64,000 nt of DNA. Source: the human T2T-CHM13v2.0 reference genome, Homo sapiens. Positions 16,034-16,992 of this stretch are shown in pieces (the stretch's first letter is position 1; each line of letters opens with the position of its first letter). The stretch is taken from NCBI RefSeq assembly GCF_009914755.1, contig NC_060947.1; one strand, written 5' to 3'. The notes under the pieces were generated by a model. It saw only the letters and a list, made by a program, of their open reading frames with translations, made no database searches and was not told where the DNA came from. Made by a program: the position numbers and the translations under genes.

Positions 16034-16066
16034 TTTGTTTTTTTGTTTGTTTTTTGTTTGTTTGTT

Positions 16067-16828
16067 TGTATTTAGACAGTTGTAGCTTTAGAGATTGTGG
16101 GCCAGAATGAAGTACTCTGAGCAAGGATGTGGAATCTGGGTTTTAATCCTCAACCTCACCATTCACATGCCGTGTAAGACTGAGCCAAAGCTGGACCTCT
16201 TTGGAATTAGCTGCCCATTTTCTCAGTAGAATAATAATAATGCCCTCTAGCAAGCTCGTAGAATTATGTTAGGATAAAATTAGATGTGTGCTATGATGGC
16301 CTCTTAAAGAAGGCCATGGGAATGTGAAGAATTATTGCACAATCAGCAGTATATATTATAAATATCAAACCTATGTATATTGAATGTGTTAATATTGAGC
16401 TTGAATTAGGAGATTCCTATGGTCCTGTTGATGCTAACATTGTATGAGTATACACGCATCCTCCCTACACACCCATATACATGCCACAAATACACAATCA
16501 CAGCCAAATGAAATATGAATGGACATTTATGTTAGATGTAACTTTGGTTTGTGATAGTCCTATATTACTTTTTTAAATCTCAGCTTCACTCATGACAGCT
16601 AGGAATGCAAAACTATGGTTTTAACTATGGAGTTAAAAGAGGGTTTTTGTTTGTTTGCTTGTTTTGTGTGTGTATCTGTTTGTTTCTTTGTTTGTTTGTT
16701 TTGAGACAGTGTTTGGCTCTTGTTGCCCAGGCTGGAGTGCAATGGTGTGATCTCGGCTCACCACAACCTCCACCTCCCGGGTTCAAGCGATTCTCCTGCC
16801 TCAGCCTCCTGAGAAGCTAGGATTACAG
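16067..16828 (-). repeat. Inverted repeat arm 2 (copy), 762 bp
   Basis: Reverse complement of 14703-15464; paired coordinates sum to 31531 throughout. Confidence 0.97.
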
Positions 16829-16992
16829 TCATGTACCACCATGTCCAGCTATTTTTATTTTTTTGTATTTTTAGTAGAGATGGTGGTTTCACCATGTTGG
16901 CCAGGGTGGACTCAAACTCCTGACCTCAAATGATCCACCTGCCTCGGCCTCCCAAAGTGCTAGGATTATAGGCATGAGCCACCACGCCCAGC
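16643..16992 (-). mobile_element. Chimeric Alu (AluSx/Sz-like 5' part joined to an AluSp right arm copied from the Alu at 14547)
   Basis: Near-identical to the 14547 Alu only up to 16828; 16829-16992 has different diagnostics (accatgttggccagg, tgacctcaaatgatcc). Confidence 0.88.

What the first reader, a model, noticed from the sequence alone, without database searches (positions are those of the whole stretch)
16034..16992. Chimeric Alu and junction homeology point to a two-step template switch
Seen: arm 2 sits between an orphan (TTTG)n tail (16034-16066) and an Alu 5' part (16829-16992) of a different subfamily than the donor AluSp. The outer junction lies inside Alu-Alu homology (gattacag). 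The inner donor end, actgtctaaataca (15451-15464), matches the Alu 3'-end/tail sequence actgtctcaaaaca (14821-14834) at 12 of 14 bases. Arm 2 carries the donor Alu's downstream TSD but not its upstream one. Inference: a pre-existing antisense Alu in the L1M had its right arm replaced by 762 bp copied from the neighbouring opposed Alu and flank (FoSTeS/MMBIR-like or conversion repair), switching at an Alu-end mimic.
Basis: partly seen in the sequence, partly recalled or inferred. Interest (0 to 1): 0.7.

Follow-up and report, generated by a model that had tools for sequence, protein, structure and literature searches.

The report
Inverted copy overwrote an old Alu
In an intron of the human MID1 gene a 762-base stretch sits twice, head to head and 98.6% identical, likely because DNA repair or replication jumped from one old Alu repeat to its neighbour, copied past it and jumped back; it is a well-preserved example of a known kind of mutation, with no sign of a function.

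Summary
Observation confirmed. Arms 14703-15464 and 16067-16828 (762 bp, 11 mismatches, no indels, 602-bp spacer). The antisense Alu at 16703-16992 is a true chimera: positions 157-281 share 5 of 5 rare donor alleles, positions 1-156 share none and differ at 21 of 154 sites. The L1 pieces either side are contiguous in other copies and carry an old 10/13 target-site-like repeat that brackets tail + arm 2 + Alu 5' part, so an older Alu was there first. The inner junction is the best Alu-end mimic among 1131 possible donor positions, but matches typical Alu ends at 9-11 of 14, not 12. Best reading (0.7): one switch-and-return event, one junction by Alu-Alu homeology, one by microhomology, replacing about 125 bp with 762 bp, probably in the great-ape era. 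Caveats: no primate outgroup was available; the outer junction may be patchy; the orphan tail and positions 134-156 are more donor-like than expected, so an earlier Alu conversion is possible. Known class (3-2-1-4 template switch; inverted duplication with deletion). Interest 0.25.

The parts
14547..14828 (+). Donor Alu body, full length (AluSp-like; the name is recalled from diagnostic sites)
   Evidence: nhmmer model 1-282; 92A/102A/152CA/243T/263ins/271A haplotype, left 92A+102A seen in 4 of 122 other Alus, all with right-arm score 3
14829..14887 (+). Donor (CAAA)n-type tail, copied letter for letter in arm 2
   Evidence: 14829-14890 identical to its mirror
14535..14546 (+). Upstream target-site repeat of donor Alu (partner at 14883-14896); shows arm 1 is the original
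14703..15464 (+). Arm 1 (template): donor right monomer from cons 157, tail, downstream repeat, about 570 bp of flank
14703..14711 (+). Outer junction window (9 bp Alu-Alu identity, near start of right monomer; mirror 16820-16828)
15451..15464 (+). Inner junction: Alu-end mimic, first of three CTGTCT units (15452, 15465, 15474); mirror 16067-16080
15465..16066 (.). 602-bp spacer between the arms
15635..16033 (-). Left piece of old L1 3' end (L1M-type, name recalled), with a 10-nt internal duplication near 16010-16029
16024..16036 (+). Left copy of the acceptor's target-site-like repeat (10 of 13 to 16994-17006)
16034..16066 (-). Orphan (CAAA)n-type tail, likely the acceptor Alu's own
16067..16828 (-). 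Arm 2: inverted 762-bp copy of arm 1
16829..16992 (-). Acceptor Alu 5' part (cons 2-156), older and independent of the donor; AluSz-like by the recalled CACTTGAG-type motif
16993..17245 (-). Right piece of the L1, beginning with the second target-site-like copy (16994-17006)

Best explanation
Arm 2 is an inverted 762-bp copy of the neighbouring Alu's right half, tail and flank, joined to the 5' half of a different, older Alu, and it likely arose in one switch-and-return DNA synthesis event that replaced about 125 bp of that older Alu. Before the event two Alus would have faced each other tail to tail about 1.15 kb apart. A 3' end inside the older Alu (broken or stalled) likely paired with the opposed donor through Alu-Alu similarity near the start of the right monomer, was extended through the donor's tail and 570 bp of flank, and rejoined its own strand where the flank mimics an Alu end plus CAAA tail (or the same two switches in the reverse order, which gives the same product). 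In four-point terms this is a 3-2-1-4 / 1-4-3-2 event; as a structural variant, an inverted duplication with a small deletion at the insertion site. Shown: copy direction, chimerism, both junction positions, L1 continuity. Inferred: the lost right arm, a single event, DNA (not RNA) template, order of switches, age (roughly great-ape era; a minimum if the arms convert each other).
For: Right part 3 of 125 different (all CpG), lower than all 122 other Alus; left part 21 of 154, inside the unrelated range; rare alleles shared 5 of 5 on the right, 0 on the left. Acceptor-private changes 9 in cons 1-133, 4 in 134-156, 1 in 157-281. L1 pieces: of 58 L1 loci, 47 align to both pieces and 36 place them adjacent, median overlap 24 nt (10-nt local duplication plus about 14-nt target site). 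Target-site-like repeat 10/13; 0 of 1020 nearby 13-mers reach that, and 57 of 120 sampled Alus score 10 or less on the same measure, so it looks like an ordinary old one. Inner junction rank 1 of 1131; three of four Alu-end hexamers in 1.13 kb cluster there. Orphan tail is not a letter-for-letter copy of the donor tail (longest shared run 15 nt) whereas the tail inside arm 2 is identical. No transduction signals. Outer junction lies where Alu-Alu junctions are reported to peak (3' ends of A and A' boxes; PMC9675761 passage; my placing of cons 157-165 relative to the A' box is recalled).
Against: No outgroup seen, so the ancestral state is reconstructed. The acceptor shares 9 of 17 donor non-majority alleles in cons 1-156 (1 of 122 others as many) and 5 of 5 in 134-156 (2 of 122; 1 of 74 in its class). 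CAAA-type tails are uncommon (11 of 152 ends, 9 of 150 without donor and copy) and the orphan tail aligns to the donor tail slightly better than all 147 other tails (48 against 46, 46, 45). Mismatches are clustered (gaps of 298 and 218 bp; P 0.006-0.06, post hoc), which suggests later conversion and weakens the date. A naive change-point fit has a second mode at 14760. The target-site repeat has 3 mismatches in 13.
Confidence: 0.7

Rival explanations
1. Two stages. An older Alu-to-Alu gene conversion first gave the acceptor the donor's right monomer and tail start (from the A-rich linker on); the near-identical inverted arms later promoted the run-on copy, which returned at a true 12/14 match.
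For: 5 of 5 donor alleles shared in cons 134-156 (about 1-2% by chance); donor-like orphan tail; 7-nt expansion at the linker; hybrid Alus from partial conversion are documented, and conversion is reported as stronger between neighbours (PMC8230782 passages).
Against: Cons 134-156 carries 4 acceptor-private and 0 donor-private changes, as dense as the acceptor's left arm; shared alleles are common CpG decays (25-43%); 4 of 190 neighbouring Alu pairs reach mid-p 0.02 or less, as chance predicts; the segment was chosen post hoc from three.
Confidence: 0.12
2. Origin at insertion: a 3' transduction of the donor, or a reverse transcriptase that jumped from Alu RNA to the local sequence and back, with later arm-to-arm conversion keeping the arms alike.
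For: One target-site-like repeat brackets the whole unit, tail outermost, as for a single insertion; mismatch clustering shows conversion is plausible.
Against: 5' part is not the donor; acceptor left part is further from the majority than the donor's (10 against 6 of 129 non-CpG), so it looks older than the donor; TTTT at 14893 would end a Pol III transcript; no AATAAA near 15464 (ATTAAA at 15384 is 80 nt away, AATACA is at the junction itself); the tail is CAAA, not poly(A).
Confidence: 0.07
3. Two-step through an inversion: Alu-Alu recombination inverted the segment on one chromosome, then an inverted and a normal allele were joined at the inner microhomology.
For: [quoted passage not shown]
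Against: Needs two rare events and a segregating inversion; the donor is not chimeric; no such inversion among chrX-10* rows of the inversion tables of PMC12350169 (weak, file cut and small inversions are hard to call).
Confidence: 0.06
4. RNA-templated repair: a nick at the old T-rich tail primed reverse transcription on a local transcript, finishing by Alu homology.
For: T-rich tail is a plausible nick site (inference); the region is inside a transcribed gene (hub annotation).
Against: Needs plus-strand RNA, antisense to MID1; 0 of 11 mismatches are arm-1 A to arm-2 G, the mark that editing of an inverted-Alu RNA would leave; no new target-site repeat.
Confidence: 0.05

Closest known systems
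Four-point template switch, type 3-2-1-4 / 1-4-3-2 (PMC5453318; passages seen)
   Same: Switch-and-return that copies a nearby segment from the opposite strand and creates an inverted repeat with an uninverted spacer; 31% of their human-chimp events.
   Different: Their events are short clusters within one fork and need no prior repeat; here the copy is 762 bp, the reach about 2 kb, and both junctions use Alu sequence.
Alu/Alu-mediated and transposable-element-mediated rearrangements (PMC9675761; passages seen)
   Same: In-register chimeric Alu with short microhomology (median 15 bp reported) between diverged opposed Alus; replication-type complexity in small events.
   Different: Only one junction is Alu-to-Alu in register; the other joins non-Alu flank to an Alu tail. 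The product is a duplication with deletion, not an inversion.
Small inverted duplications / INVDUP complex variants in long-read human cohorts (PMC12350158, PMC12350169; passages and parts of supplements seen)
   Same: Local inverted copy with microhomology junctions; 277 events of median 284 bp in one cohort.
   Different: Those are polymorphic; this one is in the reference with 1.4% arm divergence, polymorphism untested. Junction homology was rare there (8.8%).
Alu gene conversion giving hybrid elements (PMC8230782; passages seen) and patchy Alu chimeras (PMC4356517; passages seen)
   Same: 5' part from one subfamily, 3' monomer from another, target-site repeat kept; 12% of reporter events were patchy.
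   Different: The tract here runs 570 bp beyond the homology and leaves the old tail stranded, like the one-sided invasion / long-tract conversion closed by end joining known from break-repair assays (recalled; only reference titles seen).

Membership tests
3-2-1-4 / 1-4-3-2 template switch | Inserted fragment is the reverse complement of a nearby segment, spacer not inverted | tested here: met
   arm 2 mirrors arm 1; both L1 pieces keep one orientation
3-2-1-4 / 1-4-3-2 template switch | Ancestral state shown by an outgroup alignment | not testable with these tools
   no primate genomes held (no relatives)
3-2-1-4 / 1-4-3-2 template switch | Single event within one fork | not testable with these tools
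   end product is the same for rival routes
Alu/Alu-mediated rearrangement | Chimeric Alu rebuilding a full element in register | tested here: met
   model 2-282 at 16992-16703; halves differ in ancestry
Alu/Alu-mediated rearrangement | Microhomology at a single crossover | tested here: inconclusive
   9-14 bp window at 14703; possible patches at cons 134-156 and 197-213
Alu/Alu-mediated rearrangement | Both junctions inside Alus | tested here: not met
   inner donor end 15451-15464 is not in an Alu; only the outer junction qualifies
Alu 3' transduction | 5' part identical in origin to the source element | tested here: not met
   21 of 154 differences, 0 rare alleles shared
Alu 3' transduction | Read-through and poly(A) signal before a new poly(A) tail | tested here: not met
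   TTTT at 14893; no AATAAA in 15380-15470; tail is CAAA type
Alu 3' transduction | Target-site repeat around the whole unit | tested here: met
   10/13, but as diverged as an old insertion, unlike the arms
Simple Alu gene conversion | Tract confined to homologous sequence, no net length change | tested here: not met
   about 570 bp of non-Alu flank copied; net gain about 630-640 bp
Balanced Alu-mediated inversion | Two reciprocal chimeric Alus, no copy gain | tested here: not met
   donor intact with both repeats; segment present twice

The most novel reading that the evidence does not exclude
Close tail-to-tail Alu pairs are not only lost by deletion but can 'perfect' themselves: repeated templated repair (first Alu conversion, then run-on copying, then arm-to-arm conversion) turns an 85%-identical Alu pair into a near-perfect 760-bp palindrome inside a transcribed intron, which still converts, may flip its 602-bp spacer in people unnoticed, and forms an unusually long double-stranded stem in MID1 pre-mRNA. 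Stranded second tails between target-site repeats would be a searchable signature of this route genome-wide.
Probability: 0.15. Interest if true: 0.55.

Novelty: new member of a known kind. Interest (0 to 1): 0.25.

Why it matters
As it stands it is one probably neutral fossil event in a MID1 intron. Its value is as a clean specimen: private Alu alleles, two target-site repeats and a stranded tail let both switch points be read to a few bases in a class of mutation (inverted duplication with deletion, Alu-assisted) that causes disease elsewhere. It also shows a trap: such a unit looks like an Alu 3' transduction, and a whole-element subfamily call would miss the chimera. It would matter more if the arms convert or the spacer flips in humans, or if the stem affects splicing or editing of long MID1 transcripts; none of that was shown.

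Tried and rejected
3' transduction, simple conversion and balanced inversion: rejected (membership rows). Editing signature among the 11 mismatches: none in the plus-strand sense; I saw no strand-coordinated pattern either, by eye only. Neighbour-conversion background: no excess in 190 pairs (mean mid-p 0.56), so my sample does not reproduce the published neighbour effect. Other high-identity duplicates: none in the rest of the window; one tandem-like hit in 229 kb of other loci. DNA fold of 15300-16230 gives the trivial long stem (-251.9 kcal/mol); it adds nothing beyond the identity. Quasi-palindrome at 16017-16033: 26 such 17-mers in the window, so not used as evidence. Literature: 10 searches; none listed a paper on this locus (MID1 searches; one hit each, listings only, unrelated by title). 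Supplement of PMC12350158: no row at this place, but uninformative, since its chrX-10* rows are all near 1 Mb and the file is cut. Inversion tables of PMC12350169: 0 of 9 chrX-10* rows here. Two relevant papers (PMC9563103, PMC2950799) were not held, so their tables and text are unseen; the largest supplement of PMC12350158 and one scanned file of PMC12350169 could not be read. The Alu sample is small (124 full-length from 293 kb), enough for private alleles but thin for subfamily classes; no named consensus library was available. Rows dropped: loci L001, L002, L003, L033 (the window itself) from all samples; in the L1 test 11 of 58 loci lacked one piece and 11 of 47 fell outside -45..15 (9 with 245-1004 nt extra, 2 at -53 and -65).

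Full report
Observation. The window holds an inverted pair at 14703-15464 and 16067-16828: 762 bp, 11 mismatches, no indels, 602 bp apart. The non-Alu part matched only these two places in the genome. Arm 1 is the original: its Alu (14547-14828) has a target-site repeat on both sides (14535-14546, 14883-14896), while arm 2 carries only the downstream copy. Nothing comparable occurs elsewhere in the window, and 229 kb of other loci gave one unrelated tandem-like hit.

The Alu is a chimera. I sampled 124 full-length Alus from 293 kb (window, 58 L1 loci, 4 chr19 stretches) and used their majority as a coordinate frame. From position 157 on, the element at 16992-16703 differs from the donor at 3 of 125 sites, all CpG, and shares 5 of 5 of its own rare alleles with the donor; in 1-156 it differs at 21 of 154, within the range of unrelated Alus, and shares none of 3 rare donor or 6 rare acceptor alleles. 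The donor has 92A and 102A, a pair seen in 4 of 122 others; the acceptor has 92G, 102T and a CATTTGAG motif. The names AluSp and AluSz are my recall, not a library call. The acceptor's 5' part looks older (10 against 6 of 129 non-CpG changes).

An older Alu was there first. The L1 pieces at 15635-16033 and 16993-17245 are adjacent in 36 of the 47 copies that align to both (58 examined), with a median overlap of 24 nt, made of a 10-nt local duplication and a target-site-sized repeat. That repeat (16024-16036, 16994-17006) matches at 10 of 13, which none of 1020 nearby 13-mers reaches, and is as decayed as many old Alu sites. It brackets tail, arm 2 and Alu 5' part. An old repeat and an old 5' part around a 1.4%-diverged core fit replacement better than a single insertion. 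Transduction signals are missing: TTTT follows the donor tail at 14893 and no AATAAA precedes 15464.

Junctions. The outer one falls in a 9-bp identity at 14703-14711. The inner donor end 15451-15464 is the best mimic of Alu end plus CAAA tail among 1131 positions; on body letters alone it ranks 10, with free register 7. Three of four Alu-end hexamers in 1.13 kb cluster there. The fixed-register test borrows its six tail letters from the donor and is partly circular; the body-only figures (about 0.01, or 0.05 allowing registers) are not.

Mechanism. The layout is the 3-2-1-4 / 1-4-3-2 switch-and-return of PMC5453318 (passages) at a larger scale: about 125 bp lost, 762 bp gained, from an ancestral tail-to-tail Alu pair about 1148 bp apart. 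One switch used Alu-Alu homeology, the other microhomology. Fork-based switching and break repair by one-sided invasion closed at microhomology give the same product, and the order of switches cannot be read. One hint favours a longer heteroduplex: at cons 197 and 206 arm 2 has the majority base where the donor has 2% alleles, and all three Alu mismatches lie within 17 bp; a naive change-point fit has a second mode just after them. Patchy chimeras were 12% of events in an Alu reporter (PMC4356517 passages). Two later CpG transversions in the donor explain it about as well.

Results against a single clean event. The acceptor shares 9 of 17 donor alleles in 1-156 (1 of 122 as many) and 5 of 5 in 134-156 (2 of 122). 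CAAA tails are found in 9 of 150 other ends, and the orphan tail scores marginally above all 147 other tails against the donor tail, though two of them have a longer exact run. These allow an earlier conversion (0.12). Against that, 134-156 has 4 acceptor-private and 0 donor-private changes, the alleles alternate every 2-5 bases, and 190 neighbouring pairs show such tails at the chance rate.

Age. 11/762 is 1.44% (0.72-2.58); non-CpG 5/740 is 0.68% (0.22-1.58). With human-chimpanzee X divergence near 1% (recalled), that points to the great-ape era. Mismatches cluster (P 0.006-0.06, post hoc), so conversion may have reset parts and the event may be older.

Known or new. Chimeric Alus with short homology and complex small Alu events are described in PMC9675761 (passages); small inverted duplications are the commonest inversion class in PMC12350158 (passages); INVDUP signatures in PMC12350169 (passages); hybrid Alus in PMC8230782 (passages). 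PMC4888836 gave only a general MMBIR passage and reference titles. Ten searches listed no paper on this locus, and it is absent from the chrX-10* rows of one set of inversion tables; supplements and papers that I could not see may list it. No function was tested or suggested: the hub annotation shows no exon or functional element here; the arms would form a long stem in transcripts that cross the region (inference; fold).

Verdict. A new member of a known kind; interest 0.25.

Noticed in passing
window 16017-16033: 16-bp palindrome with a one-base bulge beside the orphan tail, overlapping a 10-nt duplication of L1 sequence (16010-16029) and the left target-site copy; it may be a second, tiny fold-back switch that explains the target-site mismatches. 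26 such 17-mers occur in the window, so chance is possible.
   Followed up: partly
window 15451-15480: Three CTGTCT units in 30 bp at the donor end (TRF: 9-bp unit x2.1); may be a scar of the event or may predate it.
   Followed up: partly
window 15290-15440: Looks like an antisense MIR fragment inside both arms (recalled resemblance, not tested).
   Followed up: no
window 16857-16870: Acceptor Alu has a 7-nt expansion of the middle A-rich linker.
   Followed up: partly
L063:2155-2732: Two tandem Alus share 21 of 22 non-majority alleles, probably a local tandem duplication.
   Followed up: no
L063:1462-1740 and 2746-3026: Opposed neighbouring Alus share 11 of 18 non-majority alleles, more than any unlinked Alu in the sample; possible conversion.
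   Followed up: no
window 13855-14135: A third Alu, antisense, lies head to head with the donor about 410 bp upstream, so the donor had inverted partners on both sides.
   Followed up: no
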